From positions 139,601-203,600 of the forward strand of contig JAUYBE010000006.1 of assembly GCA_030693235.1 (NCBI GenBank): a stretch of DNA of 64,000 nt, read 5' to 3'. The notes below the pieces were generated by a model that was not told where the DNA came from, made no database searches, and saw only the letters and a program-made list of their open reading frames with translations. A program made the translations under genes and the position numbers. The first letter of the stretch is position 1. Every line of letters begins with the position of its first letter. Below, piece after piece: positions 2,242-58,383 of the stretch. This stretch comes from a bacterium. GTDB lineage: Bacteria; Patescibacteriota; Minisyncoccia; UBA6257; UBA9933.

Positions 2242-2653
2242 TATGCCCACAATCAGCCAATTAATTAAAAAGAGAAGAAAAAATACCAAGAAAAAAACCA
2301 AAGCGCCGGCAATGGGTTTGTATTTTAACACGCAGGACAATAAGCCGGTTTATTCAAATTCGCCTTTCAAGCGCGGCGTTTGTTTAAAAGTTTTTACGAC
2401 TACGCCGAAAAAGCCGAATTCGGCCATGCGAAAAGTCGCCCGGGTGCGTTTAACCAACGGCATGGAAGTGACGGCTTATATTCCCGGCGTTGGACACAGT
2501 CTTCAAGAGCATTCGATAGTTATGATAAGGGGCGGCAGAGTCAAGGATTTGCCGGGCGTTAAATATCACATTGTCCGGGGAGTGTTGGACGCCGGCGGCG
2601 TTGAAGGCAGAAAACAGGAAAGAAGCAAGTATGGGGCGAAGAAACCGAAGTAG
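2242..2653 (+). CDS. rpsL: 30S ribosomal protein S12
   Basis: [19 protein letters not shown]...[14 protein letters not shown] core. Start placed at [10 protein letters not shown]. Confidence 0.9.
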
Positions 2654-2732
2654 CTTTTAGGTTTTAGTTTTTAGGTTTTAGATAATAAATTTCTAACACC
2701 TAACACCTAACACTTAACACCTAATACCTAAC
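2654..2732. repeat. family A themed palindrome (TTTTAGG)n-loop-(CCTAACA)n abutting the rpsG start
   Basis: Direct reading. The 3' arm ends 1 nt before the TTG start at 2733. Confidence 0.8.
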
Positions 2733-3200
2733 TTGAGAAGAAAACGTAAATATAAAAAAATTCATCAACCCGACGTTCAATATAATAATATCGCTGTTTC
2801 GCGGTTTATTAACTATTTAATGAAAGGCGGTAAAAAATCCGTTGCCGAGAAATTATTTTACAAATCTTTTGCTAATATTCAAAAGGAAACTAAAACAGAG
2901 CCGCTTTCGATTTTCGAAAAAGCCCTTGAAAACGCCACGCCGCTTCTGGAAGTCGTGTCCAAGCGCGTTGGCGGCGCCAATTATCAGGTGCCTAGAGAAG
3001 TCAGGCCGGAAAGGAAATTTTTATTGGCTTGCCGTTGGATTATTGAAGCAGCTGCGTCAAAAAAAGGTAAACCAATGGCTCAAAAATTGGCCGAAGAATT
3101 AATCGCGGCGTCAAAGAACGAAGGCGCGGCTATAAAGAAAAAACAGAATGTTCATAGAATGGCGGAAGCAAACAGAGCCTTCGCGCATTTCGCCAGATAG
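2733..3200 (+). CDS. rpsG: 30S ribosomal protein S7 (TTG start)
   Basis: RRKRKYKKI...NYLMKGGKKSVAEKLFY matches the uS7 N-terminus. The first codon is ttg. Confidence 0.9.
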   Translation: MRRKRKYKKIHQPDVQYNNIAVSRFINYLMKGGKKSVAEKLFYKSFANIQKETKTEPLSIFEKALENATPLLEVVSKRVGGANYQVPREVRPERKFLLACRWIIEAAASKKGKPMAQKLAEELIAASKNEGAAIKKKQNVHRMAEANRAFAHFAR

Positions 3201-3202
3201 AT

Positions 3203-3275
3203 TAGTTTTTAGGTTTTAGTTTTTAGGTTTTAGATAAAAAAATCTAACACCTAACACCTAACACCTAACACCTAA
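3203..3275. repeat. family A themed palindrome abutting the fusA start
   Basis: Same motifs and orientation as 2654-2732. Ends 2 nt before the TTG start at 3278. Confidence 0.8.
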
Positions 3276-6915: not shown

Positions 6916-8154
6916 ATGAAACAATCTAAACTTTTTATCAAAACCAAACGCGAGGCGCCGAAAGACGAAGAGGCGATTAACGCTAGATTACTGATACGGG
7001 CGGGTTTTATCGATAAATTAATGGCGGGAGTTTACACTTTTTTGCCGTTAGGATTAAGAACGCTTAAAAAAATTGAAAATATTATTCGCGAAGAAATGAA
7101 CAAAGCCGGCGGACAGGAAGTTTTAATGCCCGGTCTTCAGCCGAAAGAAAATTGGGTAAAAACCGGAAGATGGGATTCTATGGATGATCTTTATAAAATT
7201 AAGGACGCAAGCGGAAGAGAGTTTGCTTTGGGTCCGACGCACGAAGAAGTGGTTTTCCCCTTACTTAAAAATGTCATTTTTTCTTATAAAGACCTGCCTC
7301 TTTATGTTTATCAAATTCAAAATAAATTCAGGATGGAATTAAGGGCAAAATCCGGCCTTTTGCGCGGAAGAGAATTTTTAATGAAAGATTTTTATTCTTT
7401 CCATACCGACGAAAAAGACAGAGATGATTATTATGATTTTATGGCGAAAGTTTATAAAAATATTTTTGACATACTAGGTATAGGAGATAAAACACACTAT
7501 ACGCTTGCCTCCGGCGGAACATTTTCCAAATATTCCCATGAATTTCAAACTGTCACCGATGCGGGCGAAGATACAATACATATTTGCTGTAAATGCGAAA
7601 TGGCCATAAATGACGATATTATAAAAGAAAATAAATCCTGTCCAAAATGCGGCGAATCAAGTTTTAGCCCAAAAAAGGCCATAGAAGTTGGGAATATTTT
7701 TAAATTAAAAGAAAAATTCGCCGATGATTTCGGATTGAAATTTAAAGATAAAGATGGAATGGAGAAAACGGTTATAACCGGCTGTTATGGAATCGGTCTT
7801 GGTCGGTTGATGGGAGCCGTTGTAGAGTCAAGCTATGATGAAAAAGGAATGATTTGGCCGGAATCAATCGCGCCGTTTCAAGTTCATTTAATCAGACTAA
7901 CGACAAACGACAAACGACAAACGATTTTTGCGGATAAAATTTATAATGCTTTACAAAAATCCGGCGTTGAAGTATTATACGACGACCGCGAAGATATTGG
8001 CGCCGGCGAGAAATTCGCCGATGCGGATTTAATCGGAATTCCATGGCGGGCCGTTGTCAGTGAAAGAACAGGAAATAAGATTGAGATTAAAAAAAGAAAT
8101 GAGAAGAAAACAAGACTGGTGAGCGAGAAAGAATTTATTAAGACACTAAAATGA
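6916..8154 (+). CDS. proS: prolyl-tRNA synthetase (short form without editing domain; Cys4 insertion)
   Basis: REAPKDEEAINARLLIRAGFI...GVYTFLPLGLR class II motifs. CCKCE...CPKCG insertion. Confidence 0.85.
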   Translation: MKQSKLFIKTKREAPKDEEAINARLLIRAGFIDKLMAGVYTFLPLGLRTLKKIENIIREEMNKAGGQEVLMPGLQPKENWVKTGRWDSMDDLYKIKDASGREFALGPTHEEVVFPLLKNVIFSYKDLPLYVYQIQNKFRMELRAKSGLLRGREFLMKDFYSFHTDEKDRDDYYDFMAKVYKNIFDILGIGDKTHYTLASGGTFSKYSHEFQTVTDAGEDTIHICCKCEMAINDDIIKENKSCPKCGESSFSPKKAIEVGNIFKLKEKFADDFGLKFKDKDGMEKTVITGCYGIGLGRLMGAVVESSYDEKGMIWPESIAPFQVHLIRLTTNDKRQTIFADKIYNALQKSGVEVLYDDREDIGAGEKFADADLIGIPWRAVVSERTGNKIEIKKRNEKKTRLVSEKEFIKTLK

Positions 8155-10104: not shown

Positions 10105-10719
10105 ATGAAAAGATCTAAAGAAAAACTGGAACGTTCGTTGGGGATGAAGCTTTTTTTGAAAGCGGATCGTTGTAATTCGCCAAAATGCGCGATGGTCAGG
10201 CATCCTCAGCGTCCGGGTATGCATGGCGGAAAACGCCGGAGGGCGAAAACAGAATATGGCGATCAATTATTGGAAAAACAAAGAATAAGAGCAAGCTACG
10301 GGCTTCGGGAAAAACAACTGGCCCGCATTGTCGAAGAGTCTATGAAAAAAACGGGTTCAGTGGGCGAAGCGATTATCAGCTCTTTGGAGCGTCAGTTTTT
10401 CAATGTGATTTTTCGTCTGGGAATAGCGCCTTCACGGGTTGTTTCAAGACAATTTATCAGCCATGGTCATTTTTTGGTTAACGGTAAAAAAGTTACCATT
10501 CCTTCTTATTCGACTAAAATAGGAGACATAGTTTCCATTAAACCTTCTTCTCGCGAGCTCTTGATTTTTAAAGATTTGCCTGATAAGCTTAAAAAATACG
10601 AAACGCTGGAATGGCTTGATTTGGATAAAGAAAAACTGGAAGGCAAAGTAAAGTCCTTGCCGCGCGATATTGAAATTCCGTTTGATATAAATTTAGTGGT
10701 GGATTATTATTCTAAATGA
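10105..10719 (+). CDS. rpsD: 30S ribosomal protein S4
   Basis: SYGLREKQ...GHFLVNGKKVTIPSY... uS4 pattern. Confidence 0.9.
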   Translation: MKRSKEKLERSLGMKLFLKADRCNSPKCAMVRHPQRPGMHGGKRRRAKTEYGDQLLEKQRIRASYGLREKQLARIVEESMKKTGSVGEAIISSLERQFFNVIFRLGIAPSRVVSRQFISHGHFLVNGKKVTIPSYSTKIGDIVSIKPSSRELLIFKDLPDKLKKYETLEWLDLDKEKLEGKVKSLPRDIEIPFDINLVVDYYSK

Positions 10720-10790
10720 GTTTTTAGGTTTTAGTTTTTAGGTTTTAGATAAAAAAATCTAACACCTAACACCTAACACCTAACACCTAA
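10720..10790. repeat. family A themed palindrome abutting the rpoA start
   Basis: Same motif and orientation. Ends 4 nt before the GTG start at 10795. Confidence 0.8.
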
Positions 10791-14129: not shown

Positions 14130-14759
14130 ATGGCATTCATTTTAGGCAAAAAATTAAAAATGTCGCAGATTTGGAAAGATGATGAAGTGATTCCGGTAAC
14201 GTTGATTCAAGCGGGACCGATAACGATAACGCAAATCAGGACAAAGGAAAAAGACGGTTATGAAGCGGTTCAGGTTGGATTCGGAACGAAAAAATTAAAG
14301 AACATCAAAAAACCGCAGCAAGGCCAATTTAAAAATTTGGGCAATTTTCAGCATGTCCGCGAATTTCGGATTAAACAATTACCAATTACCAGTTACCAGT
14401 TACCAAAAGTAGGCGATGTTTTGGATGTCAGTCAATTTGAAGACGGTGGCAAAGTAAAAATCAGCGGCTTAAATAAAGGTAAGGGATTTCAAGGAGTCGT
14501 TAAGCGCCACGGTTTTCATGGCGGACCGAAAACTCACGGCCAAAAAAATCGCCATCGAGCGCCCGGTTCAATTGGCGCCACGGCGCCGCAACGGGTAATG
14601 CCCGGGAAAAAAATGGCCGGTCGAATGGGACAGGAACGAATAACGGTTAAAAATTTAAAAATTGCCGGCGTGGATAAAGAAAACAATATTTTGATGATTA
14701 AAGGCGCGGTGCCGGGAATGAGGGGAACACTGTTGGAAATTAATCAGTATGACAGTTAA
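14130..14759 (+). CDS. rplC: 50S ribosomal protein L3
   Basis: GKGFQGVVKRHGFHGGPKTHGQKNRHRAPGSIG uL3 signature. Confidence 0.9.
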   Translation: MAFILGKKLKMSQIWKDDEVIPVTLIQAGPITITQIRTKEKDGYEAVQVGFGTKKLKNIKKPQQGQFKNLGNFQHVREFRIKQLPITSYQLPKVGDVLDVSQFEDGGKVKISGLNKGKGFQGVVKRHGFHGGPKTHGQKNRHRAPGSIGATAPQRVMPGKKMAGRMGQERITVKNLKIAGVDKENNILMIKGAVPGMRGTLLEINQYDS

Positions 14760-18818: not shown

Positions 18819-19049
18819 ATGAAAAGAACACTACAAGGAACAATAGTTTCCGATAAAATGAATAAAACCAGAGTTGTGGCTGTAACGCGTCTTAAAAAAC
18901 ATCCGATATATCATAAATATTATAAAGTAACGCGGAAATTTAAGGCGCATGACGAAAAAAACGAATATAAGGCCGGAGAAAAAGTAATCATTGAAGAAAC
19001 AAGGCCGATCAGCAAAGATAAAAGATGGAGAATTATTGGGAAACAATAA
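18819..19049 (+). CDS. rpsQ: 30S ribosomal protein S17
   Basis: [18 protein letters not shown]...[27 protein letters not shown]. Confidence 0.85.
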
Positions 19050-19050
19050 G

Positions 19051-19118
19051 TTTTTAGGTTTTAGTTTTTAGGTTTTAGAGAATTTCTAACACCTAACACC
19101 TAACACCTAACACCTAAA
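19051..19118. repeat. family A themed palindrome abutting the rplN start
   Basis: Same motif and orientation. Ends 4 nt before the ATG at 19123. Confidence 0.8.
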
Positions 19119-24367: not shown

Positions 24368-24460
24368 TAAAAGTTAAAAGTTCATAAAGTTCATAAAGTT
24401 TATAAAGTCGCGGATTAAAACACTTTATAACATTATAACTTTCAACTTTATAAACTAATA
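24368..24460. repeat. themed palindrome (AAGTTCATAAAGTT)n / (ACTTTATAA)n before adk
   Basis: aagttcataaagttcataaagtttataaagt ... actttataacattataactttcaactttataaact. Confidence 0.6.
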
Positions 24461-25198
24461 ATGATAGCAATCATAATGTATGGTCCTCCGGGCTCCGGTA
24501 AAGGAACTCAGGCTAAGCTTTTAGCCGATAAATTCGGGTTGATTCATTTTGACACAGGGAAATACATTGAACGAGTTGTTCACAATTCAAAAAATAAAAA
24601 AAATAAAATAATTCAAAAACAGCGCGAATTATTTGATTCCGGAATTTTATGCGATCCTTCTTGGGTTTTTAAAATTGTAAGCGAAAAAACTCGCCAGTTG
24701 GTTAAAATTGGTTTTGGTATTGTCTTTAGCGGCTCCCCCCGGACGTTTTACGAAACCTTTGGCATAAAACACGAAACAGACGCGAAAATTAAAAAAAACA
24801 CGAAACAGACGCGAAAATTAACAAGGGGTTTAATTGATATTTTAGAAAAATATTACGGCAAGAAAAATGTTTTTGTTTTTAATATTGATATTTCCGATAA
24901 AAATTCAATCAAAAGAAACGGCAATCGTTTAATGTGCTCGGTTTGCGGGACTCAGATATTAAATAAAGTTTTAAAGTTTAAAAGTTTAAAAGTTTCAAAG
25001 TGTCCGTTTTGCGGCGGAAAACTTTATCGCCGGACATTAGACAAACCGGAAATCATTAAAGTAAGATTAAAAGAATATCGGGAAAGAACATTGCCGATTC
25101 AAAAAGAATTGAAAAAACGCGGTTATAAAATTATTGATATTAATGGCGAGTCCTTGCCGGAAAAAGTTCATAAAAAAATATCTTCTTATTTAACTTAG
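24461..25198 (+). CDS. adk: adenylate kinase (zinc-LID type) carrying repeat-derived insertions
   Basis: GPPGSGKGTQA P-loop. CSVCG...CPFCGG LID. Internal 29-nt direct repeat and an AAGTTTAAAAGTT array. Confidence 0.8.
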   Translation: MIAIIMYGPPGSGKGTQAKLLADKFGLIHFDTGKYIERVVHNSKNKKNKIIQKQRELFDSGILCDPSWVFKIVSEKTRQLVKIGFGIVFSGSPRTFYETFGIKHETDAKIKKNTKQTRKLTRGLIDILEKYYGKKNVFVFNIDISDKNSIKRNGNRLMCSVCGTQILNKVLKFKSLKVSKCPFCGGKLYRRTLDKPEIIKVRLKEYRERTLPIQKELKKRGYKIIDINGESLPEKVHKKISSYLT

Positions 25199-28570: not shown

Positions 28571-29833
28571 ATGTTAGATATTAATTTTATCCGTCAAAAT
28601 TCGGAAGAAGTCAAAAAAGGCGTTGCCGCCAAAAATGTAAATCCTCAATTAGTGGATGATTTTTTGGTTTTGGATAATGAATGGCGAGAGTTGGTCAAAG
28701 AAACCGATGATTTGCGGGCAGAACAGAAGAAGCTTTCCGAAGAGCGTAAAATCAATGAAGCAAAAGAATTAAAAAATAAAATTCAAAATCTGGAAGAAAG
28801 ATTGAAGCAAGTTGAAACCGAACGTCAGAAAATTTTATACCAATTGCCGAATTTGCCGTTAGAAGACGTACCGGTAGGCAAAAATGAAAGCGAAGATATT
28901 GTTTTACGCGAAGTGGGTGAAAAGTTAAGCTTTGACTTTGAACCGAAAGATTATTTGGAGCTCGCCGAAAAATTGGATTTAATTGACATTAAACGCGCTT
29001 CAAAAGTTTCAGGAAGCCGCTTCGGTTATTTAAAAAATCAAGCGGCGCTTTTGGAATTCGCTTTGATTAAATTAGCATTAGACACAGCGGCCAAACATGG
29101 ATTTACGCCGATTATTCCGCCGGTGATGATTAAAGAAGAAATGATGAAAGGAATGGGATATATTCAAAGTTCAATGTTAGACGAGGAAGTTTATTTTTTA
29201 AGAGACGATGATTTGGTTTTGGTTGGAACTTCCGAGCAGTCTCTCGGCCCGATGCATAGCGATGAGATTTTTGAAGAAAAAGATTTGCCCAAAAGATATG
29301 TGGCTTTTTCAACCTGTTTTCGCCGCGAAGCTGGTTCTTATGGAAAAGACACCAAAGGCATTTTAAGGGTTCATCAATTTGATAAAATAGAAATGTTTAT
29401 ATTTTCACTTCCAGAAAATTCATTAAAAGAACATCTGTTAATGCTGAAAATTGAGGAAGAATTAATGCGGGAATTAGGAATCCCTTATCGGGTTGTTCAG
29501 CTTTGCACGGGCGATATAGCTCAGCCGTCGGCTTCCACTTATGATATTGAGGCGTGGCTACCGGGCCAAAACAACGGCAAGGGCCAGTATCGTGAAACTC
29601 ACTCCACTTCCAATTGCACCGATTTCCAAGCCCGAAGATTAAATATCCGTTATAAACCCCTAAAACCTAAAACCCAAAACCTAAAACCTAATTACGTTCA
29701 CACCCTAAACGGCACCGCTTTCGCAATTGGCAGAATGCTTATCGCCATCATTGAAAATTACCAACAAAAAGACGGTTCGGTTTTAATGCCGAAAGTTTTG
29801 CAAAAGTACTTAGGATTCAAGAAAATTGAATAA
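28571..29833 (+). CDS. serS: seryl-tRNA synthetase carrying an in-frame family-A-like repeat insertion
   Basis: N-terminal coiled coil plus class II core (TCFRREAGSYG...HTLNGTAFAIGRMLIAIIENYQ). Confidence 0.85.
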   Translation: MLDINFIRQNSEEVKKGVAAKNVNPQLVDDFLVLDNEWRELVKETDDLRAEQKKLSEERKINEAKELKNKIQNLEERLKQVETERQKILYQLPNLPLEDVPVGKNESEDIVLREVGEKLSFDFEPKDYLELAEKLDLIDIKRASKVSGSRFGYLKNQAALLEFALIKLALDTAAKHGFTPIIPPVMIKEEMMKGMGYIQSSMLDEEVYFLRDDDLVLVGTSEQSLGPMHSDEIFEEKDLPKRYVAFSTCFRREAGSYGKDTKGILRVHQFDKIEMFIFSLPENSLKEHLLMLKIEEELMRELGIPYRVVQLCTGDIAQPSASTYDIEAWLPGQNNGKGQYRETHSTSNCTDFQARRLNIRYKPLKPKTQNLKPNYVHTLNGTAFAIGRMLIAIIENYQQKDGSVLMPKVLQKYLGFKKIE

Positions 29834-31494: not shown

Positions 31495-32361
31495 ATGAAA
31501 AGCAGCATATATTTTGACGAAAAATCGGAGCGGAGAAGAAAGCGGATGTTAAAAATCAAGATTTACGCGGGATTAGCGGCTTTTTTTGTTTTGCTCATCG
31601 GCGCGGGGTATTTGATCGTTTATTCTCCGCTATTTCAAATTAAAAACATTTCAATATTTCGGTCGTCCGACGACCGAAATTTGACATCGGACGTTCAGAA
31701 ATTAAAAGAAAATCTTAAAAATTTCTTTACCAACCAATCAAAAATTGCCGAATTTTTGGGCCCTGAAAATATTTTGATTTGGAAATCGGAAAAATCCGCT
31801 GAGTTTATAAAAAATTATCATCAAATCGCGGAATTGAAAATCGAAAAGCATTATTTGGGACGGGAAATAAAAATCAGCGTTTCGGAAAGAGAGCGATTTG
31901 GCATTTGGTGCTTCATAACGCGGAACTACGCGGAAGATAACGCGGAACTACGCGGAAATAGTCTGCGTGAGTCAGCATGCTGGTGGTTTGATAAAAAGGG
32001 TGTTATTTTTTCGGAAGCGTTGAAGGCGGAAGGGCAATTGATAAATAAAGTAGATGATTTTTCCGGCCGTTCCTTAAATCTCGGCGAACCGGTTCTTGAA
32101 GAAAAATTTCTTTCTAATTTGTTTAAAATTTTTGAAATTCTTGAAAAATCGGATTTGAAAATAAAATCGCTGAAATTGGAAAATCTTAAACTTCAAGAAG
32201 TTGTTACCGATTCGCCGTTAATGCCGAAAATCCATTTCAGCTTAAGAATTAATTCGGAATTCGCCTTAGCCGCTTTGGATTCCATCAAAAAAATCGGATT
32301 TAGTAAAATAGAGTATATCGATTTAAGAGTGGAGAATAGAGCATATTACAAACTTAAGTAA
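31495..32361 (+). CDS. hypothetical membrane-anchored protein, possibly FtsQ/DivIB-like (POTRA)
   Basis: Single N-terminal TM helix. IKISVSERERFGIWC resembles the POTRA beta-strand. Contains a tandem ACGCGGAA insertion. Confidence 0.25.
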   Translation: MKSSIYFDEKSERRRKRMLKIKIYAGLAAFFVLLIGAGYLIVYSPLFQIKNISIFRSSDDRNLTSDVQKLKENLKNFFTNQSKIAEFLGPENILIWKSEKSAEFIKNYHQIAELKIEKHYLGREIKISVSERERFGIWCFITRNYAEDNAELRGNSLRESACWWFDKKGVIFSEALKAEGQLINKVDDFSGRSLNLGEPVLEEKFLSNLFKIFEILEKSDLKIKSLKLENLKLQEVVTDSPLMPKIHFSLRINSEFALAALDSIKKIGFSKIEYIDLRVENRAYYKLK

Positions 32362-32365
32362 AATT

Positions 32366-34207
32366 TTATAGTTTGTAAATAAATATTGATTTACCCGCTT
32401 TAAAATCCGGCTGATACGGATTTTTTATTTCTTTCAGCCATTGGTATTCGTTTTCCGGACTTCTTGATTGGCCCGGATGAAGTTCGCCAAAAGCGTTTTG
32501 AAGAGTATTAATTGAAATCGCCAACCATCCAATATTTTCGTATTTCGGATTATTTTTCGATGATTGCCAATATTCAGCTTTATCTCCCAAATAATATTTC
32601 GGGTTGCCGCCGCCGAAATAATCAATGGCGATCTTTTTTATGTCATTGTTATAGTCATTGTCATTGTTTCTATCATTCACCCATTTAGCTAGTCGTTTCA
32701 AATCCTGACCCCAGTCGTAGTTAGAATCCACGGCGTAACGATAACCGTTATTTGTTCCGCCGGCGAATTGGTTGAAATAAGAAAGAAAATGAGGATAAAC
32801 CAACAAGGTTTCGGCAAAATACCAAACCATTAAAACGGCGATTAAAATTTTTTTAGTTTTTGCTTTTTTGCCATTAATCCATTTTTTAATCGCGCCGGCA
32901 GTTAAGATATAAATAAACGGCATTGTCGGCAGAATATGCCGAATACCGATATTCAACGGACTTTTAATACTGTAAAGCCAATAGAAAATCACAAATGAAA
33001 TCATTGCGAATTCGGCGAAATGAAGACCGAGATAGTCCATTAAACGACATTTGACATTTGACACTTGACATTTGACATTTTTAACAATTCTCCAAGAAGC
33101 AAAAATAAAAGCAAGAAGAATTAATATCAGCGACGGAATAGATTCTTTTAAAATAAAAAGTACTGGAAAATAATACCACCAACCAACTGCCGAAACTTCG
33201 CCCAAGAAATAACCGGTATTACCGCCGGATGAACGTTGCATCACCATTAAAACGCCGAGCATATATTCTCCAAGCGGCCTTAAAATTTTATTATTGGCCA
33301 TCCAAATATTAATTTCCGCCAAACATCGTAAATTCAGTTTACAGCTTTCCCAATTTGCGTCCGGGCCGCCGGCAAAAGAAGCTAAAGTGAATTTTGTGTC
33401 GGCAAACTGTTTTTCAATCGGATAATTAATCGTAAACAAGAAATAAACCGCGTAGACCAAGGCGTAGCCGATAATAAAAATCAATAAAAGCGCTTTAATA
33501 TAATGAAAAGCTTTATTTTGCTGTTTGTCGTAATAAATTTTCCAGATATAAAAAATAACGATTAAAAATATAAAAAACGGAATTAAAAGCACGGCAGAAA
33601 ATTTCATCAATTGGGCGACGCCGAAAGCCAAGCCGGCGAAAATTAAATATTTTTGCGACGGCCCAAGGAGAAATTTTACAAAATAATAAGTGGCGATGAA
33701 TATTCCCAGAGCCGCGCCGAGGTCAGTAGTAACATAATGGCCGTGAGCAAGTACGGTCGGAGAAAGGGAAAAGAGAAAAGCGGGAAACAGCGCCCACCAG
33801 CGGCCCATAAGTTCTTTTCCCCAAATATAAATAAAAATTATTAAGAGGAGAGTTAAAAGCATCGGGCCCAAACGCGACCACTGGATAATTTTATCGGCGT
33901 CGTTTCCGGATTCATATAAAAATTGGTTGCCGGCTTCCCATTGGCCGTTAATGTCATTTTGCCAAGCGGATTTGTCAGTCGGAAAATTCAACTTGTGAAA
34001 TAATAACGGCAAAGCGGCTAAAGTTTTTACCAAAGGCGGATGTTCGGGATTTAAACGATAATCCAGATATTTGACGTAGCCGTAGCCGGCCGGAATGTGC
34101 GCCAGTTCATCCATTGTGGCCGATTCCTGGAGAGAGGCGTTGAGCATCAAAAAAAATGACGCTGAAACAATCGCGGCCAACAAAAGCCAATTAATGTATT
34201 TATTCAT
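32366..34207 (-). CDS. GT-C fold membrane glycosyltransferase (GT39 / ArnT / PMT_2-like)
   Basis: About 12 TM helices. An N-terminal MDELAH first-loop acidic motif. Contains tandem CATTTGACA and TCATTG arrays. Confidence 0.55.
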   Translation of the reverse strand: MNKYINWLLLAAIVSASFFLMLNASLQESATMDELAHIPAGYGYVKYLDYRLNPEHPPLVKTLAALPLLFHKLNFPTDKSAWQNDINGQWEAGNQFLYESGNDADKIIQWSRLGPMLLTLLLIIFIYIWGKELMGRWWALFPAFLFSLSPTVLAHGHYVTTDLGAALGIFIATYYFVKFLLGPSQKYLIFAGLAFGVAQLMKFSAVLLIPFFIFLIVIFYIWKIYYDKQQNKAFHYIKALLLIFIIGYALVYAVYFLFTINYPIEKQFADTKFTLASFAGGPDANWESCKLNLRCLAEINIWMANNKILRPLGEYMLGVLMVMQRSSGGNTGYFLGEVSAVGWWYYFPVLFILKESIPSLILILLAFIFASWRIVKNVKCQVSNVKCRLMDYLGLHFAEFAMISFVIFYWLYSIKSPLNIGIRHILPTMPFIYILTAGAIKKWINGKKAKTKKILIAVLMVWYFAETLLVYPHFLSYFNQFAGGTNNGYRYAVDSNYDWGQDLKRLAKWVNDRNNDNDYNNDIKKIAIDYFGGGNPKYYLGDKAEYWQSSKNNPKYENIGWLAISINTLQNAFGELHPGQSRSPENEYQWLKEIKNPYQPDFKAGKSIFIYKL

Positions 34208-35911: not shown

Positions 35912-37480
35912 TTAATTTAAAATAACCACATACCCATTCTCCAGGATTTGATTTTTTTGTTCGGGTAAAATATAGAAGAGATTTTTCTCTTTTTGTTTTT
36001 CCGGAGTGAAAGTGTCGGTAATGAACATTACGGTTTGCGCCGGCATTGGGATACCGCGGACGTCAACACCGCCGGCTTCAACGATAACGTATTTTGGCGT
36101 TTCTTTCGGCAGAGAATTTAATTCGCGGCCGATTTGAACGTAATCGGCGGAAAAAGCTCCTTGAACATTGTAATTTTGTCCCCATTTAATGAAATAAGTA
36201 TTGTAGGCCTCAAACACAAGAATAGAAAGCAGAAAGTAAAAAGTAGAAAGTAAAAAAATTTTTATTCGTATATTCGTAAATATTCGTAATTTCGTAAATT
36301 GTTCGTAAAGCCAAACACCGCCAAAACCGGCTAAAATAAAAATTGGCGGAATCATTATAATCGCGCGGAGAGCGTGCGGCATACCTTCGTTGGAAACAAC
36401 AACTGGAAGAGCGGCGATAATTAGCCAAGCGAATAAAATTAAGAATGGTAATTTTGGGAAGTCCGACTTCCTTAATATTGATTTGGTTCCCAAAATAGTT
36501 CCTATTATAAATAAAATTCCGACCGGCCAAAAAAGTTCCGGTTTGCCCGCGTAATTATGGCGCCAATTATAATCGCCGCTGAAATTAAACATTCCGGCGG
36601 TCTTTAAAATATTAACTGTTAAATCTTTAATCGGGGCAGGAGAATTGAAAACAGAAATTTGGGTTGTTCGCCCGAAGAAATCCTGAGGGTTTTGCAGAAA
36701 ATATAATCCCAATGGCGCGGCAACAATAATAGCTATTAGAATATAGCCACTAGCCACTAGTAGTATTTTTTTACGAATTTGCCAATTTTTATTTCCGAAC
36801 CAGTAGTAAAATAAAATTGTTAAAATTAAAAGCGGCGTGGCGCGATAGGCGATATAAGTGTGAAAACCAAAACCATAGAAAATTCCACCAAACAAAGAAA
36901 AAAGTATAGCTCGCCCCTGTCCAGTCAACTGGACAAGGGATTGATTATTTTGATTATTTGGAGCGGTAGATTTTAACTTATTAAGAGACGCTAAAAGAAA
37001 ATATATTCCCCAGACAAGAAAGAATGGCGCCATTATCGCGCGAAAACCGATACGGGAAAAAAGAATATGCCAAAAGCTCACGGCGAGAAGAAAAGATGAA
37101 AGTAGGGCGATAAACTCCGCCTGCCTGTCTGGCGGGCGGAGTTTAAACAACTCTCTTGTTAAAAAATACGTTCCCAATACCGTTAAAATTCCGAACACCG
37201 CTGCTACGCTTCTCGGTACCCACGGTTCGTGGCCAAATTTAACAATAAAAAATCCGATGATATTCGGCCAAAGCCCTTCGCGGCCGTTATTTTCCGGATA
37301 AAAAACTTTTAAATTTCCGGTTTCCCACGCCTCTACGCCATTATTGGCGTAAATTGCTTCGTCGGGATAAAGTCCGGGCGGCAGTTCGACGATATTGTAT
37401 AAACGCAGAAAAGAGGCTATAATTAGAATAACAAAAACTATTAACCATTGACTTTTGACTATTGACGATAATTTGCTCAT
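35912..37480 (-). CDS. GT-C fold membrane glycosyltransferase (GT39 / ArnT / PMT_2-like), second copy
   Basis: LPPGLYPDEAIYANNG first-loop DE motif and many TM helices. Contains internal TACGAAA-family repeats and GC-rich palindromes. Confidence 0.6.
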   Translation of the reverse strand: MSKLSSIVKSQWLIVFVILIIASFLRLYNIVELPPGLYPDEAIYANNGVEAWETGNLKVFYPENNGREGLWPNIIGFFIVKFGHEPWVPRSVAAVFGILTVLGTYFLTRELFKLRPPDRQAEFIALLSSFLLAVSFWHILFSRIGFRAIMAPFFLVWGIYFLLASLNKLKSTAPNNQNNQSLVQLTGQGRAILFSLFGGIFYGFGFHTYIAYRATPLLILTILFYYWFGNKNWQIRKKILLVASGYILIAIIVAAPLGLYFLQNPQDFFGRTTQISVFNSPAPIKDLTVNILKTAGMFNFSGDYNWRHNYAGKPELFWPVGILFIIGTILGTKSILRKSDFPKLPFLILFAWLIIAALPVVVSNEGMPHALRAIIMIPPIFILAGFGGVWLYEQFTKLRIFTNIRIKIFLLSTFYFLLSILVFEAYNTYFIKWGQNYNVQGAFSADYVQIGRELNSLPKETPKYVIVEAGGVDVRGIPMPAQTVMFITDTFTPEKQKEKNLFYILPEQKNQILENGYVVILN

Positions 37481-50408: not shown

Positions 50409-51515
50409 TTATTTCAAATTTTCTATAATTGCCACTTCCAGCGGCACGATTGCGAACGGACTATAACGCATTTCAGTGTAAGCTTCAATCAGCGATTTAA
50501 TCAATCTAACGGTTTTTTCCGCGTCAATCGCTTGGCTGTGTTTTTTAATGGTTTTCATTTCTTGGTCGGTCAGTTCGCGGGAAAAATGATTTTCCAGTTC
50601 CGGAGAAAATTTTAAAGCCAAAACTCGGCGGAAATAATGGATTAAATCTTTATTGAGCTGGGTAAGATTATAACCGCCTTCGTTAATCTTGGAAAGATAT
50701 TCCAATCCGGCCGCCAAATCGCGATTTATCAGCAATTCCGCCAGTTTGGATGTTTTTGAAAAAGAAACGGAGCCGATAATTTCTTCAACATCGTTAATGT
50801 CTATTTGTTTTCCGGATTTTAGCGAAGCAATCTGATCTAAAAGCGATTCGGCGTCGCGCATGCTTCCGCCGCCCGCTTCGGCGATTAATTCAACGGCTTC
50901 ATCGCTGATTTTAATGCTTTCCGTTTCGGAGATGCTTTTCAGTTTTTCGGCTATTGTCTTAAGCGCCAGTCTTTTGAAATGAAATCTTTGAGTTCGGGAA
51001 ATAATCGTCGCCGGCATTTTTTCGGCTTCGGTGGTTACCAAAATTAAAATCGCGTGAGCCGGCGGTTCTTCTAAAGTTTTCAAAAGAGCGTTAAAAGCGT
51101 CTTTGGTCAATTGGTGGGCTTCGTCAATAATATAAACTTTATAATGATACGCGGCAGGGGAGACGCGAATGCTTTCTTTGATGTCGCGGATTTCATCAAT
51201 GCCTCGATTGGAAGCGGCGTCAATTTCAATAACGTCCATTGCAGAACCCTTGTCAATTTCCAAACAAGCTTGGCATTCATTGCACGGTTCGCCGAGTTTT
51301 TTAAAAGCCGCGTCGCTAAATCGCTTTTGGCAATTGGCGATTTTGGCGATAATTCTGGCGGTGGTGGTTTTACCCGAACCTTTCGGTCCGTAAAACAAAT
51401 AAGCGTGAGCCAAACGGTCAAGCCGTCCCGCGTTTTTTAAAAGTTCCGAGACTGCTTCTTGTCCCAGAAGATCGGATAAGATTTTGGGCCGATATTTGCG
51501 ATAAATAGCCAGCAT
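50409..51515 (-). CDS. dnaX: DNA polymerase III subunit gamma/tau (short form)
   Basis: FYGPKGSGKTTTARIIAK..C..C zinc module and SRC/clamp-loader motifs. Confidence 0.85.
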   Translation of the reverse strand: MLAIYRKYRPKILSDLLGQEAVSELLKNAGRLDRLAHAYLFYGPKGSGKTTTARIIAKIANCQKRFSDAAFKKLGEPCNECQACLEIDKGSAMDVIEIDAASNRGIDEIRDIKESIRVSPAAYHYKVYIIDEAHQLTKDAFNALLKTLEEPPAHAILILVTTEAEKMPATIISRTQRFHFKRLALKTIAEKLKSISETESIKISDEAVELIAEAGGGSMRDAESLLDQIASLKSGKQIDINDVEEIIGSVSFSKTSKLAELLINRDLAAGLEYLSKINEGGYNLTQLNKDLIHYFRRVLALKFSPELENHFSRELTDQEMKTIKKHSQAIDAEKTVRLIKSLIEAYTEMRYSPFAIVPLEVAIIENLK

Positions 51516-51519
51516 TTGT

Positions 51520-51590
51520 TTAGGTGTTAGGTGTTTAGGTGTTAGGTGTTAGTTAATTTCTAAAACCTAAAAGCTAAAACCTAAAAGCTT
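51520..51590. repeat. family A themed palindrome in reverse orientation, abutting the dnaX start on the minus strand
   Basis: gtttaggtgttaggtgtttaggtgttaggtgttag...ctaaaacctaaaagctaaaacctaaaagc. Orientation relative to the downstream gene is as for the other copies. Confidence 0.8.
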
Positions 51591-51656
51591 AAATTACATT
51601 TTACATTAAAACATCCACCCTTGACAAGTTTTGGCAGTCTGCTATCCTCTTAATAT

Positions 51657-52853: not shown

Positions 52854-53377
52854 CTATGACCAATGACAAAATTACGGCCGCTATTGAAGCGATTCTTTTC
52901 GTCTACGGCGAGCCGATGGAAATAAAACGAATAGCCGATATTTTGAAAGTTGAAGAAAACACCGTAGATGAAGCATTGAAAGAGCTTGAGAGCGGATATT
53001 TGGCGGAAAACAGGGGATTAAAGCTGATTTTTAACAGTCGGCAGGTCCAATTGGCGACCAAGCCCGATTTCGCCGATTTTCTAGAAAATTTTATCAAAGA
53101 AGAATTTAAGGAGAATTTAACTCCCGCTTCTTTGGAAACGCTTTCGCTTATCGCTTATTTGGGACCGCTTTCCCGCGTTCAAATAGAGTATCATCGCGGA
53201 GTTAATTCCAGTTTTATTTTAAGAAATTTATTAATCCGCGGTTTGATTGAGCGTTTTCCTAATCCTCAAAAAGGCAATGTTTATCTTTACCAACCGAGCT
53301 TTGATTTGTTAAAATATTTGGGAATATCAAAAATCGAAAAACTGCCGGAGTATGAGAAGTTTAAGACTATAATATAA
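52850..53377 (+). CDS. scpB: segregation and condensation protein B
   Basis: AAIEAILFVYGEPMEIKRIADIL winged-helix pattern. Confidence 0.75.
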   Translation: MTMTNDKITAAIEAILFVYGEPMEIKRIADILKVEENTVDEALKELESGYLAENRGLKLIFNSRQVQLATKPDFADFLENFIKEEFKENLTPASLETLSLIAYLGPLSRVQIEYHRGVNSSFILRNLLIRGLIERFPNPQKGNVYLYQPSFDLLKYLGISKIEKLPEYEKFKTII

Positions 53378-53447
53378 GTTTTTAGGTTTTAGTTTTTAGG
53401 TTTTAGTGAATTATCTAACACCTAACACCTAATACCTAACACCTAAA
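53378..53447. repeat. family A themed palindrome abutting the ATG at 53451
   Basis: Same motif and orientation. Ends 3 nt before the ATG. Confidence 0.8.
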
Positions 53448-57198: not shown

Positions 57199-57202
57199 TC
57201 AG

Positions 57203-57264
57203 GTTTTAGGTTGTAGGTTTTAGGTTTTAGAACCTAACACCTAACACCTAACACCTAACACCTA
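57203..57264. repeat. family A themed palindrome ending 0 nt before the ftsW ATG
   Basis: ggttttaggttgtaggttttaggttttagaacctaacacctaacacctaacacctaacacctaATG. Confidence 0.8.
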
Positions 57265-58383
57265 ATGAAAAAAGCAGGTCATCATCCGGATTATGTTTTT
57301 ATTTCTTTTATTGTTTTATTGGCGGTTTTCGGTTTGGTAATGCTTTCTTCGGCTTCTTCGGATCTCGGTAAAATTAAATTCAACGACACCTATTATTATC
57401 TTAAACATCAATTGCTTTACGGATTAAGTTTCGGGCTGGCGGGTTTTTTGATAGCCAGTTTGATTCATTACCGTTTCTGGCAGAAATTGGCGGTGCCGCT
57501 TCTTCTTATAAGCGTTTTTGCTTTGGTTTTGGTTTTTACGCCATTGGGATTTACCCATTCCAGCGCCAATCGTTGGCTCAATCTCGGTCCCTTTTCGGTT
57601 CAACCGGCCGAGCTTTTGAAATTTTCTTTTATTATTTATTTAAGTGCCTGGTTAAGTTCGAAAAAAGAAAGTTCGGGCAGGCGGAAAAGTTTTTCAACCG
57701 GTTATTTGCCGTTTTTGATTATTTCCGGATTGGTGGCTTTTTTGATTATTATGCAACCGGCCACTACCACGGTCGCCATTATTATGGCCGCCGGTCTTAT
57801 TGTGTATTTCGTAAGCGGCGCCCGATTGTCTTTTGTTTTCGGAACGATATTCTTGGGATTATTGGGCTTGACTTTAGTTATAACGACTTCTCCTTATCGC
57901 TTGGAACGGGCGGAAACTTATATCAAAACTTTATTTAGTTCCGAAACAATTGACACCCGAAAAGAAGGTTATCATCTTGATAAAGCTTTGACGCTAATCG
58001 GTTCTGGAGGACTGACAGGCGTCGGTTTCGGCAAATCAATTGCTAAATTTAAAAATCTTCCCGAACCTATCGGCGATTCGATTTTCGCGGTCATCGCAGA
58101 AGAGCTCGGTTTCATCGGAGCCCTGATTTTAATCGCGACTTTTATCGCGTTTTTCATAAGAGGAATTATGATTGCCAAAAAATCGCGCGACCAATTCGCC
58201 GTTCTGACGGTCGTCGGATTTATTTCTATTATTATTATTCAAACTTTTATTCATATCGCCGCCAATTCGGGGTTATTGCCGTTGACCGGCGTTACTCTGC
58301 CTTTCATCAGCTACGGCGGCACTTCTTTGGCGATTTTTTTGACGATGACAGGGGTTGTTGTTAATATATCAAAGTATACATGA
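57265..58383 (+). CDS. ftsW: SEDS-family peptidoglycan polymerase FtsW/RodA
   Basis: 10-TM SEDS protein between mraY and murG. Confidence 0.85.
   Translation: MKKAGHHPDYVFISFIVLLAVFGLVMLSSASSDLGKIKFNDTYYYLKHQLLYGLSFGLAGFLIASLIHYRFWQKLAVPLLLISVFALVLVFTPLGFTHSSANRWLNLGPFSVQPAELLKFSFIIYLSAWLSSKKESSGRRKSFSTGYLPFLIISGLVAFLIIMQPATTTVAIIMAAGLIVYFVSGARLSFVFGTIFLGLLGLTLVITTSPYRLERAETYIKTLFSSETIDTRKEGYHLDKALTLIGSGGLTGVGFGKSIAKFKNLPEPIGDSIFAVIAEELGFIGALILIATFIAFFIRGIMIAKKSRDQFAVLTVVGFISIIIIQTFIHIAANSGLLPLTGVTLPFISYGGTSLAIFLTMTGVVVNISKYT

What the first reader, a model, noticed from the sequence alone, without database searches (positions are those of the whole stretch)
29656..29690. In-frame family-A arm (CCTAAAACCTAAAACCCAAAACCTAAAACCTAA) inside seryl-tRNA synthetase
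The serS reading frame translates the repeat as KPLKPKTQNLKPN, between RRLNIRY and VHTLNG. Canonical SerRS has only a few residues at this position (established knowledge of SerRS motif 3 surroundings). This is one arm of the intergenic family A element inserted without breaking the frame. So the hairpin motif, or the slippage process that makes it, also acts on coding DNA.
Basis: partly seen in the sequence, partly recalled or inferred. Interest (0 to 1): 0.7.

Follow-up and report, generated by a model that had tools for sequence, protein, structure and literature searches.

The report
Heptamer-repeat module inside seryl-tRNA synthetase
A 33-base run of the 7-base unit CCTAAAA sits in frame in a surface loop of an essential enzyme of a tiny (Patescibacteria) bacterium. 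The same short module also occurs in frame in many other housekeeping genes and as one arm of hairpins between genes, so it looks like a miniature dispersed DNA repeat that proteins merely tolerate.

Summary
serS (28571..29833, 420 aa) carries (CCTAAAA)x4.7 at 29659-29691, read in frame as K-PLKPKTQNLKPN-Y. The one off-consensus unit (CCCAAAA, C at 29675) removes the TAA that a perfect 7-nt repeat would place in this frame.

The repeat matches family-A hairpin arms: 27-28/33 to the right arm, and 21-23 of 24-26 to the reverse complement of the left arm. It is not a simple insertion. It replaces a loop that is 8-10 aa in solved SerRS and 9 aa in most Patescibacteria, for a net gain of 4-6 aa.

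It is one case of a clade-wide pattern. Tracts of about 30-35 nt of tandem heptamers make up about half of all tandem repeats in the window. They also lie in frame in EF-G, L3, another class II aaRS and a PMT glycosyltransferase. The exact 32-mer of serS recurs in frame in PGK, TIM and TatD genes from other metagenomes, and its 26-nt core in at least 15 gene families, always in the sense orientation. It also forms a hairpin arm.

Orthologous loops carry different heptamers or none. The copying mechanism is unresolved. No description was found in the literature searched.

The parts
28571..29833 (+). serS, seryl-tRNA synthetase, 420 aa; host gene of the repeat
   Evidence: ORF. PF02403+PF00587 and 100% identical NCBI entry. 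PDB 2DQ3 E 9e-107. AF2 pLDDT 90 and Foldseek TM 0.92 to 2DQ3.
29654..29695 (+). Codons 362-375 (KPLKPKTQNLKPNY): the variable loop between the strand ending in RY361 and the strand starting at VHTLNG, just before motif 3
   Evidence: The AF2 model has strands 360-362 and 374-385 flanking a coil at 363-373, and the mean pLDDT of residues 361-370 is 70. The equivalent loop is 10, 10 and 8 aa in 2DQ3, 2DQ0 and 6X94.
29659..29691 (+). Tandem heptamer tract (CCTAAAA)x4.7. The 32-mer 29660-29691, CTAAAACCTAAAACCCAAAACCTAAAACCTAA, is the dispersed module.
   Evidence: TRF. An identical 32-mer lies in frame in PGK (L105), TIM (L134/204/211), TatD (L161) and L109/183. No inverted partner. mRNA MFE is 0 kcal/mol.
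29675..29677 (+). Codon 369, CAA (Gln). The C at 29675 replaces the T of the consensus unit and so removes the in-frame TAA that (CCTAAAA)n gives once every 21 nt.
   Evidence: Read directly from the sequence. Relatives solve the same codon as CAA (L083), TCA (L087), and TAT or TAC in other genes. In L083 ligA the stop-free unit is homogenised to a perfect (AACCCAA)x4.6.
2651..2732 (+). Family-A hairpin element, copy 1: (TTTTAGG/TTTTAGT)n, loop, (CTAACAC)n
3202..3275 (+). Family-A hairpin, copy 2, between the stop of ORF 2733..3200 and the start of EF-G
   Evidence: It folds at -22.2 kcal/mol, z -4.8, as 6-bp helices split by periodic mismatches.
10719..10790 (+). Family-A hairpin, copy 3
19049..19117 (+). 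Family-A hairpin, copy 4
51517..51593 (-). Family-A hairpin, copy 5, inverted. It lies directly upstream of the minus-strand clamp-loader gene 50409..51515.
53377..53446 (+). Family-A hairpin, copy 6, between scpB and a D-Ala-D-Ala carboxypeptidase gene
57201..57265 (+). Family-A hairpin, copy 7. Its left arm is all GG-type units and is the closest to the serS tract.
33046..33080 (-). In-frame heptamer tract (AAATGTC on the sense strand) in a PMT_2 glycosyltransferase. This is a second loop where orthologues carry different heptamers.
7895..7924 (+). In-frame tract (GACAAAC)x4.3 in a class II aaRS (6916..8154)
14376..14406 (+). In-frame tract (CAATTAC)x4.4 in ribosomal protein L3
3951..3982 (+). 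In-frame tract (AGTTAAA)x4.6 in EF-G
24965..25001 (+). In-frame 8-nt tract (AAAGTTTA)x4.6 in the adenylate kinase LID loop, a net gain of 2 aa over relatives

Best explanation
The serS repeat is one copy of a dispersed module of about 32 nt made of tandem heptamers (unit CCTAAAA, with one stop-free CCCAAAA unit). In this Patescibacteria clade, such tracts of about 30-35 nt occur in two settings. Pairs in inverted orientation fill short gaps between genes (the family-A hairpins). Single tracts lie in the sense orientation and in the one open frame inside tolerant surface loops of housekeeping proteins.

In SerRS the tract has overwritten the variable hairpin loop just before motif 3, a net gain of 4-6 aa, leaving the catalytic motifs intact.

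Shown:
- the tract is real and translated;
- the loop is a hot spot for such tracts across the clade;
- the identical 32-mer sits in unrelated genes and in a hairpin arm;
- the tract is younger than the gene's divergence from its relatives, or is maintained at the DNA level.

Inferred:
- The module spreads and is renewed at the DNA level. The proposed route is copying between tract loci (gene conversion or template switching at slipped structures), followed by slippage in 7-nt units. Only changes of 21 nt or 3n nt that are free of stop codons would survive in genes.
- The enzyme tolerates the extra Lys/Pro-rich loop rather than needing it.
For: (1) Reality and frame.

(2) The loop is variable and exposed. 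It is 8-10 aa in solved SerRS. In the AF2 model it is a coil with lower pLDDT between two strands.

(3) The site is a hot spot. Among the 120 closest SerRS, loop lengths are 6-8 aa (14), 9-10 aa (53) and 12-14 aa (53), with none of 11 aa. Of the long loops, 19 repeat at least 3 residues at a spacing of 7 aa. The DNA shows CCTAAAA (window, L083, L087), AATCAGC (L081), AAACTCA (L092) and a 21-nt duplication (L084 against L086).

(4) The process is genome-wide. In the window, 26 of 54 tandem-repeat clusters have period 7 and most have 4-5 copies. Across 93 sequences there are 61 intergenic and 31 coding period-7 arrays. These are concentrated in the closest relatives, and 69 more distant loci have none.

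(5) Units are shared within a genome. L083 has seven CCTAAAA-type tracts in frame in serS, PMT, ligA (2), gatC and gatA (2). The serS and gatA tracts share 33 identical nt.

(6) The module is dispersed.
- The 26-mer core has at least 120 metagenome hits.
- 28 hits lie in ORFs of 150 aa or more, all in the sense orientation and none antisense, although an antisense frame is open.
- Host genes are TsaD, PGK, enolase, PEP synthase, TIM, TatD, LigA, MiaA, ThrRS, a GlmM-like protein, GatA, SerRS and a prepilin leader.
- Sources name Wolfebacteria and Moranbacteria.
- The window's exact 32-mer is in PGK, TIM and TatD.

(7) There is a link to hairpins. In L137 and L206 the left arm of a family-A hairpin is the exact reverse complement of the module, including its CCC unit.

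(8) The tract is maintained or recent at the DNA level. Four-fold sites of window and L087 serS agree at 43% (n=93), but 6 of 6 agree inside the tract.

(9) Other lineages carry decayed versions of the same length (for example KPKNQISNVKTGY and KPKVKGLNLKTNEY). This fits arrival followed by drift.
Against: - No copying mechanism was identified. Pfam scans of 30 window ORFs found no transposase, reverse transcriptase or similar enzyme. No target-site duplication is visible at 13 junctions.
- Net length changes are 0 to +6 aa (TIM 0, TsaD +1/+3/+4/+6, TatD +3, enolase +4, SerRS +4 to +6) and never +10-11 aa. A simple cut-and-paste insertion is therefore excluded.
- The L081 tract shares both flanks (AAATCAG... 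and ...CAATTAAATT) with the canonical loop of L089. It could therefore have grown in place.
- Five other in-frame heptamer tracts in the window have units not seen in its intergenic hairpins.
- L083 and L087 have the tract in serS but no family-A hairpin in the 21 and 12 kb held.
- The metagenome pattern itself required the CCC unit. The identity of that unit across hits is therefore partly a result of how the search was set up.
- Some of the 28 ORFs are on high-GC contigs and may be spurious.
Confidence: 0.55

Rival explanations
1. Purely local origin. The tract grew in place by slipped-strand mispairing from a Lys/Thr/Pro-rich loop sequence, as a coding minisatellite. Its likeness to family-A arms and to tracts in other genes reflects a shared mutational preference for A-rich heptamers plus the same frame and stop constraints, not copying.
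For: - The L081 tract is flanked by the same bases as the canonical loop.
- Ten-residue loops of more distant relatives already contain TCTAAAACTAAAAA (L010).
- Loops of 7 and 14 aa differ by exactly 21 nt, or 3 units (L086 against L084).
- L083 ligA has a perfectly homogenised stop-free unit.
- Orthologous PMT loops carry related units that differ at the same position in every copy, which is concerted evolution.
- Six coding tracts in the window have six different units.
Against: - An identical 32-mer occurs in unrelated genes of different organisms, and as a hairpin arm.
- Seven tracts of one unit family lie within 10 kb of one genome.
- Tract length is narrow (about 4-5 units) and no SerRS loop exceeds 14 aa.
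- The same loop holds unrelated units in backbones at least 89% identical.
Confidence: 0.25
2. The tract is selected for a function. One version is at the protein level: a Lys/Pro-rich loop that helps tRNA or partner binding. The other is at the nucleic-acid level: a recognition tract such as an uptake-type or protein-binding signal. Such a signal would need copies spread along the chromosome and would be placed in loops where no intergenic room exists.
For: - There is a strict sense-orientation bias, 28:0.
- The DNA sequence is kept where synonymous sites are otherwise near saturation.
- The tract replaces loops with little length change, as DNA uptake sequences do in coding DNA (established knowledge of Haemophilus USS and Neisseria DUS).
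- serS alleles are visibly mosaic, which would fit frequent recombination.
Against: - One genome carries many unrelated units, not one signal.
- Close relatives do well with a 9-aa, 7-aa or 6-aa loop, or with a different peptide.
- Decayed tracts exist.
- The sense bias is also expected from selection against the hydrophobic antisense peptide LGFRFWVLGF.
- The tract RNA has no predicted structure.
Confidence: 0.1
3. A complete family-A hairpin element (both arms) was inserted into serS, and one arm and the loop were later deleted.
For: The tract matches the arms. Hairpin elements come and go at orthologous intergenic gaps.
Against: - A roughly 75-nt hairpin in frame would carry stop codons. 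The right arm reads CTA ACA CCT AAC ACC TAA, so it would be lethal in an essential gene.
- No trace of a second arm exists.
- None of the coding copies examined in relatives or metagenomes has two arms.
Confidence: 0.05
4. Assembly artefact: a chimeric join or collapsed repeat placed the tract in serS.
For: Metagenome assemblies break and mis-join at such repeats. P0142 ends inside a tract, and L087/L090 are mosaic.
Against: The frame and length are intact and motif 3 follows in frame. The same tract lies at the same site in independent assemblies and samples.
Confidence: 0.03

Closest known systems
Rickettsia palindromic elements (RPEs)
   Same: Both are dispersed short repeats found between genes and, in frame, inside unrelated housekeeping genes. 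In both, the inserted peptide lies where protein structure tolerates it (review PMC10969869; Ogata et al. 2000 from memory).
   Different: RPEs are about 100-150 bp palindromic elements that add a whole peptide segment. Here the unit is a tract of about 32 nt of tandem heptamers, corresponding to a single arm. It replaces a loop with a net change of 0 to +6 aa, and the same site turns over between different units.
Cyanobacterial STRR sequences (short tandemly repeated repetitive heptamers)
   Same: Both are tandem heptanucleotide arrays dispersed in many copies through a bacterial genome. This rests on my own knowledge (Mazel et al. 1990); a heptamer-probe paper is listed in PMC3542288.
   Different: STRR are described as mainly intergenic, occur in heterocystous cyanobacteria, and have other units. 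In-frame copies in essential enzymes and inverted-pair hairpins filling stop-start gaps are not part of that description, as far as I know.
Tandem repeats of Borg elements
   Same: Both are fast-evolving tandem repeats that arise within genes and create new, probably disordered protein segments (PMC9879509).
   Different: In Borgs the genic units are divisible by 3, and the repeats arise locally and independently. Here the unit is 7 nt, so each tract needs a stop-free variant and a total length of 3n. The same tract also recurs in many genes.
REP/BIME and MITE-like intergenic hairpins
   Same: Family-A elements are imperfect palindromes of 65-82 nt in short intergenic gaps. They have many copies per genome and are present or absent at orthologous gaps in relatives.
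   Different: The arms are themselves tandem heptamers with a regular mismatch every 7 nt. No RAYT or transposase was seen in the ORFs scanned. The elements fit exactly between a stop and the next start codon.
DNA uptake sequences (USS/DUS)
   Same: Both are over-represented short DNA motifs found as inverted pairs between genes and, in preferred frames, inside tolerant parts of proteins without changing length (established knowledge).
   Different: USS and DUS are one 9-12 bp motif per species and depend on a known uptake bias. Here many unrelated units coexist, and no uptake specificity is known.
Simple-sequence contingency loci (phase variation)
   Same: Both are tandem repeats, with a unit not divisible by 3, inside an ORF.
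   Different: Contingency loci switch non-essential surface genes on and off by frameshift. serS is essential, and only in-frame variants (differences of 21 nt) are seen.

Membership tests
Seryl-tRNA synthetase (class II aaRS), host gene | N-terminal coiled-coil arm plus class II core with motifs 2 and 3 | tested here: met
   PF02403+PF00587. Full-length alignment to 2DQ3 with E 9e-107. AF2 model TM 0.92 to 2DQ3. Invariant residues such as R355, R356, H377, N380, E395 and N396 are kept.
RPE / MITE-type in-frame repeat | Many dispersed copies of one sequence, both intergenic and in frame in unrelated genes | tested here: met
   At least 120 metagenome hits. 28 hits lie in long ORFs covering about 15 protein families. 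An identical 32-mer is in PGK, TIM, TatD and SerRS.
RPE / MITE-type in-frame repeat | The element is a palindrome with terminal inverted repeats | tested here: not met
   The serS copy and all coding copies examined are single direct-repeat tracts with no partner arm and an MFE of 0.
RPE / MITE-type in-frame repeat | Insertion adds the element's length and often leaves a target-site duplication | tested here: not met
   Net change is 0 to +6 aa for a 10-11 aa module. No duplication is visible at 13 junctions.
STRR-type heptamer arrays | Tandem repeats of a 7-nt unit present in many copies per genome | tested here: met
   26 of 54 tandem-repeat clusters in the window have period 7. Across 93 sequences there are 92 such arrays.
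STRR-type heptamer arrays | Cyanobacterial, with the STRR1-3 units | tested here: not met
   The host is Patescibacteria. The units are CCTAAAA, CTAACAC and others.
Phase-variable contingency locus | Copy-number changes shift the frame and switch the gene on or off | tested here: not met
   All serS alleles seen are in frame, and length classes differ by 21 nt. Population reads were not available.
REP/BIME with RAYT | A cognate RAYT (TnpA-like) gene in the genome | tested here: inconclusive
   None among the 30 window ORFs scanned with Pfam. The rest of the genome is not available.
Intrinsic terminator (reading of family-A hairpins) | GC-rich stem followed by a run of T | tested here: not met
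   The stems are AT-rich with periodic mismatches. The right arm is followed by AAAATTG, AAAAAAG or ATG, not by a T run.
DNA uptake sequence | A single motif per species whose frequency is driven by uptake bias | not testable with these tools
   Many different units coexist in one genome, which argues against membership. Uptake bias cannot be tested here.

The most novel reading that the evidence does not exclude
This Patescibacteria clade may have an active DNA-writing or DNA-copying process that lays down tracts of about 32 nt of tandem heptamers. The tracts would be placed as inverted pairs in stop-start gaps and as single sense-strand tracts in tolerant loops of essential genes. The process would repeatedly overwrite the same sites with new units. 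That would be a new class of miniature mobile or templated element, distinct from transposons, MITEs and ordinary microsatellites. It would be a steady source of new protein loops in ultra-small genomes.
Probability: 0.25. Interest if true: 0.9.

Novelty: new variant of a known kind. Interest (0 to 1): 0.72.

Why it matters
- **Repeats in essential enzymes.** Even the most reduced bacterial genomes carry a self-propagating or self-renewing class of short repeats. These write themselves into essential enzymes, including tRNA synthetases, glycolytic enzymes, EF-G, L3, DNA ligase and TsaD.
- **A source of new loops.** This is a concrete, testable route to lineage-specific protein loops in the Candidate Phyla Radiation.
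- **A possible repair or replication peculiarity.** The narrow tract size, the 7-nt unit, the turnover of units at fixed sites and the link to intergenic hairpins point to an unknown repair, replication or recombination feature. Comparative genomics could track it.
- **Practical cautions.** Such tracts break and mis-join metagenome assemblies, since mosaic serS alleles and contig ends fall inside tracts. They can also mislead alignments and phylogenies of marker proteins.

Tried and rejected
- **Partner arm.** A search for an inverted partner of the serS tract within 400 nt found only trivial 10-nt matches, so the hairpin reading of the coding copy was dropped. RNA folding of the tract gave an MFE of 0.
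- **Rfam.** A scan of the whole window found only 3 tRNAs and no family for the hairpins.
- **Phylogeny.** An NJ tree of 120 SerRS with the loop masked scattered the tract types among 9-aa loops. I first read this as recurrent gain. I then withdrew that as proof, because serS alleles are mosaic: L087 and L090 are 100% identical over about 850 nt and then 70-85%. That pattern could come from recombination or from chimeric assembly.
- **Does each genome's serS unit match its own hairpin family?** This holds for the window only. L081, L083, L087 and L092 show no matching hairpin in the 12-21 kb held.
- **Before-and-after pair.** I looked inside the 90% cluster of a module-bearing MiaA. All members carry the module, and the length differences are N-terminal.
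- **Candidate enzymes.** Pfam scans of 30 window ORFs for transposase, RT or RAYT found none.
- **Literature.** Searches for heptanucleotide or 7-bp repeats in Patescibacteria, Parcubacteria or CPR found nothing. The STRR search gave only indirect references.
- **Terminator reading.** Reading family A as intrinsic terminators was rejected because there is no T run.
Full report
**1. The observation**

The window is a 39% GC stretch of a Patescibacteria (Parcubacteria-type) genome. The ORF 28571..29833 (+) encodes a 420-aa seryl-tRNA synthetase. Three lines of evidence identify it:
- It is 100% identical to an NCBI entry 'MAG: serine--tRNA ligase' and carries PF02403 plus PF00587.
- It aligns end to end with Aquifex SerRS 2DQ3 (E 9e-107).
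- An AlphaFold model (pLDDT 90) superposes on 2DQ3 with TM 0.92.

Its closest relatives are named Patescibacteria, Wolfebacteria or Paceibacterota. They share the gene order ribosomal operon, secY, adk, map, GT2, greA, lysS, serS.

At 29659-29691 TRF finds (CCTAAAA)x4.7 with 92% matches. In the serS frame, codons 362-375 read K P L K P K T Q N L K P N Y, between ...FQARRLNIRY and VHTLNG.

Chance does not explain this. The 15-mer with up to 2 mismatches hits 38 times in the window against 0.37 expected. Codon-shuffled ORFs give 0.01 period-7 arrays against 5 observed.

A perfect 7-nt repeat read in triplets passes through TAA once every 21 nt. The only off-consensus unit, CCCAAAA, turns that codon (369, at 29675-29677) into CAA. 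The tract then ends just before the next TAA would fall. This follows directly from the sequence.

**2. Loop length at this position**

The equivalent segment is KDSKTGKNRF (10 aa) in Aquifex, RDRTDEKPRY (10 aa) in Pyrococcus and RTPEGPQF (8 aa) in 6X94.

In 80 genomes of the wider group it is almost always 8-10 aa, typically RDKxGKLNF. Loop lengths among the 120 closest proteins are:

| Loop length (aa) | Proteins |
|---|---|
| 6-8 | 14 |
| 9-10 | 53 |
| 11 | 0 |
| 12-14 | 53 |

The window's 14-aa loop is therefore 4-6 aa longer than the canonical one. The tract occupies essentially the whole loop, so this is replacement, not pure insertion.

In the model the tract-coded residues form a coil (363-373) at the tip of a beta hairpin, between strands 360-362 and 374-385. 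Confidence is lower there, with a mean pLDDT of 70 for residues 361-370. I could not compute distances to the active site or to the tRNA.

**3. The same loop in relatives**

Of the 53 long loops, 19 repeat at least three residues at a spacing of 7 aa, which is what a 7-nt DNA repeat produces. The DNA confirms this:

| Locus | Backbone identity | Loop DNA or peptide |
|---|---|---|
| L083/L002 | 73% to the window | AAACCTAAAACCCAAAACCTAAAACCTAAAACC |
| L087 | 67% to the window | Nearly the window's loop, with TCA in place of CAA |
| L081 | 80% to the window | (AATCAGC)x4.4 |
| L092 | 90% to L087 | (AAACTCA)x4.7 |
| L084 | 77% to the window | A 21-nt duplication of the 7-aa loop RNQKLEY seen in L086 |
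| L088 | | 6 aa |
| L089, L090, L091 | | Canonical 9 aa |

Loops of 6-7 aa and 13-14 aa differ by 7 aa, which is 21 nt or three units.

On a tree built without the loop, tract types are scattered among canonical loops. The genes are mosaic, however. L087 and L090 are 100% identical for about 850 nt and then 70-85% identical. This patchiness may therefore reflect allele exchange or chimeric assembly rather than repeated gain.

At four-fold degenerate sites the window and L087 serS agree at only 43% (n=93), yet all six such sites inside the tract agree. The tract is therefore either younger than the split of the two genes or kept uniform at the DNA level. Other lineages keep the 13-14 aa length but have lost the periodicity (for example KPKNQISNVKTGY and KPKVKGLNLKTNEY), as expected for old tracts left to drift.

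**4. A genome-wide and clade-wide pattern**

In the window, 26 of 54 tandem-repeat clusters have period 7, and most have about 4-5 copies (27-40 nt).

Intergenic arrays usually come as inverted pairs. The seven family-A elements read (AGTTTTT AGGTTTT)x2, then a 3-11 nt loop, then (CTAACAC)x4-5. They fill the gap between a stop codon and the next start codon. They fold as 6-bp helices interrupted by a mismatch every heptad (-21 to -27 kcal/mol, z -3.7 to -4.9).

In-frame tracts in the window lie in these genes:

| Gene | Unit | Period (nt) |
|---|---|---|
| EF-G | AGTTAAA | 7 |
| Class II aaRS (6916..8154) | GACAAAC | 7 |
| Ribosomal protein L3 | CAATTAC | 7 |
| SerRS | CCTAAAA | 7 |
| PMT glycosyltransferase | AAATGTC | 7 |
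| Adenylate kinase | AAAGTTTA | 8 |
| EF-G and ScpA | ACGCGGA-type | 10-11 |

The PMT loop repeats the serS story. At one orthologous site the units are AAACCTA (L083), AAATGTC (window), AAAGCTA (L084), AAAAGTC (L082), CAAGTAT (L003, L004) and none (L051, L054). Each variant is present in every unit of its tract.

Across 93 sequences there are 61 intergenic and 31 coding period-7 arrays. These are concentrated in the closest relatives, and 69 more distant loci have none. Orthologous intergenic gaps are empty in some relatives and filled by different hairpin families in others. One family sits at different gaps in the window and in L084.

**5. The serS tract is a copy of a dispersed module**

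In L083, seven CCTAAAA-type tracts lie in frame in serS, PMT, ligA (two), gatC and gatA (two). All have the A-rich strand as sense. The serS and gatA tracts share 33 identical nt, and one ligA tract is a perfect (AACCCAA)x4.6, meaning the stop-free unit has been homogenised.

The results were as follows:
- 28 hits lie in ORFs of at least 150 aa, all in the sense orientation and reading KPKTQNLKP. None is antisense, although the antisense frame LGFRFWVLGF is open.
- The hosts are TsaD (one gene has four tracts), PGK, enolase, PEP synthase, TIM, TatD, LigA, MiaA, ThrRS, a GlmM-like protein, GatA, SerRS and a prepilin leader.
- Sources name Wolfebacteria and Moranbacteria for some hosts.
- A few of the 28 are on high-GC contigs and may not be genes.
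- The window's exact 32-mer (29660-29691) is in PGK, TIM and TatD.

In L137 and L206 the reverse complement of the module, CCC unit included, is the left arm of a family-A hairpin. The stop-free unit therefore also exists outside genes.

Against solved homologues, module-bearing loops show these net changes:

| Protein | Net change (aa) |
|---|---|
| TIM | 0 |
| TsaD (four sites) | +1, +3, +4, +6 |
| TatD | +3 |
| Enolase | +4 |
| SerRS | +4 to +6 |

The change is never +10 to +11 aa. No target-site duplication is visible at the junctions.

**6. Mechanism**

Shown:
- The tract is translated.
- It lies in a variable, probably exposed loop.
- The loop is a hot spot for heptamer tracts.
- The same tract is dispersed among genes and hairpin arms.
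- The tract is renewed or recent at the DNA level.

Inferred, at about 0.55 confidence:
- Tracts are copied between loci, by gene conversion or template switching at slipped or hairpin structures.
- They are then reshaped by slippage.
- Selection passes only sense-oriented, stop-free versions of 3n length, of tolerable size, in loops.
- The enzyme tolerates the tract rather than needing it.

The main rival, at about 0.25, is purely local growth by slippage. It is supported by three points:
- the L081 tract shares both flanks with the canonical loop;
- loop length classes differ by 21 nt;
- units evolve in concert within tracts.

Identical 32-mers in unrelated genes and unit sharing within genomes argue against it.

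A selected function, as a peptide or as a DNA or RNA signal, gets about 0.1. Insertion of a whole hairpin with later loss of one arm gets about 0.05. An assembly artefact gets about 0.03. No enzyme candidate was found in the 30 window ORFs scanned.

**7. Comparison with what is known**

The closest parallel in behaviour is the Rickettsia palindromic element, a dispersed repeat found in frame in many housekeeping genes (PMC10969869). That family's defining features (palindrome, size of about 100-150 bp, additive insertion) were tested here and are not met.

The closest parallel in form is the cyanobacterial STRR heptamer array (from memory). It differs in host, units and location.

Borg tandem repeats also create new protein segments, but their units are divisible by 3 and they arise locally (PMC9879509).

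Uptake sequences share the pattern of inverted pairs between genes plus frame-biased copies in genes. They are a single motif per species.

Full-text searches found no description of heptamer tracts in Patescibacteria.

**8. Verdict**

The finding is real and its core idea holds: the family-A unit is present in frame in serS. Its details need correction, because the tract replaces a 9-10 aa loop and is a solo tract. It opens onto a wider, apparently undescribed pattern. I rate it a new variant of a known kind, with interest 0.72.

Noticed in passing
window 2651-2732, 3202-3275, 10719-10790, 19049-19117, 51517-51593, 53377-53446, 57201-57265: Family-A hairpins fit almost exactly between the stop codon of one gene and the start codon of the next. 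They are always oriented (TTTTAGG)n then (CTAACAC)n then the start codon. There is no room for a separate Shine-Dalgarno site and no T run. The two arms are never perfect complements, with a U.C or G.A mismatch every 7 nt. This suggests a role in coupling or processing rather than termination.
   Followed up: partly
window 24368-24460; L084 4464-4538: A different hairpin family (AAAGTTCATAAAGTTTATAAAGTCGCGGATTAAAACACTTTATAAC...) lies between secY and adk in the window but between L15 and secY in L084. The same element is therefore at different gaps in related genomes.
   Followed up: partly
window 24766-24821 (adk): A perfect 29-nt direct repeat (x1.9) inside adenylate kinase encodes a roughly 16-aa segment, KHETDAKIKKNTKQTRKLT. 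This segment is absent or much shorter in the relatives' Adk.
   Followed up: partly
window 3519-3546 (EF-G), 52666-52703 (ScpA), 31915-31960 (ORF 31495..32361): In-frame arrays of a 10-11 nt unit containing ACGCGGA give peptides such as LNADSRRLDADSRG. Similar peptides (LNADKRG, QINADGKQINADKQ) occur in ThrRS and enolase of other metagenome contigs (L197, L115). This looks like a second dispersed coding module.
   Followed up: no
L087, L090, L091, L092 (serS): serS alleles from related populations are mosaic. L087 and L090 are 100% identical for about 850 nt and then 70-85% identical. L090 and L091 are 100% identical in a different segment. The cause is either recombination or chimeric metagenome assembly.
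   Followed up: partly
L181 (TsaD), L093 (TsaD): One TsaD gene carries four CCTAAAA-type tracts in four different loops. The orthologue in L093 has, at one of these sites, a tract of another unit (peptide LNPQSSILNPQ), and at another site a roughly 50-aa insertion.
   Followed up: partly
L148 (minus strand, around 3079): The module forms the leader peptide of a type IV prepilin-like protein: M-LKPKTQNLKPN-S-FTLIELLIVI.
   Followed up: no
window 36223-36309, inside ORF 35912..37480 (-): A pair of arrays typical of an intergenic hairpin (TACGAAT-type and TTTCTAC-type) lies inside a 522-aa ORF that has no Pfam match. The ORF may be two genes read through an intergenic element.
   Followed up: no
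window 29895-30593: Directly downstream of serS is a protein with a Mrr_cat restriction-endonuclease domain, a topoisomerase-type zinc ribbon and an N-terminal membrane segment.
   Followed up: no
L141, L160, L172-L174 and other metagenome loci: Long non-coding (CCTAAAA)n arrays with occasional CCC units occur on contigs of 42-66% GC, so the same heptamer is also a long satellite in other, unidentified organisms.
   Followed up: no
L109/L183: The module joins a 23S-rRNA-intervening-sequence protein domain (PF05635, Avd-like) to a downstream hydrophobic segment in one ORF. This may be a read-through of a former intergenic tract.
   Followed up: no
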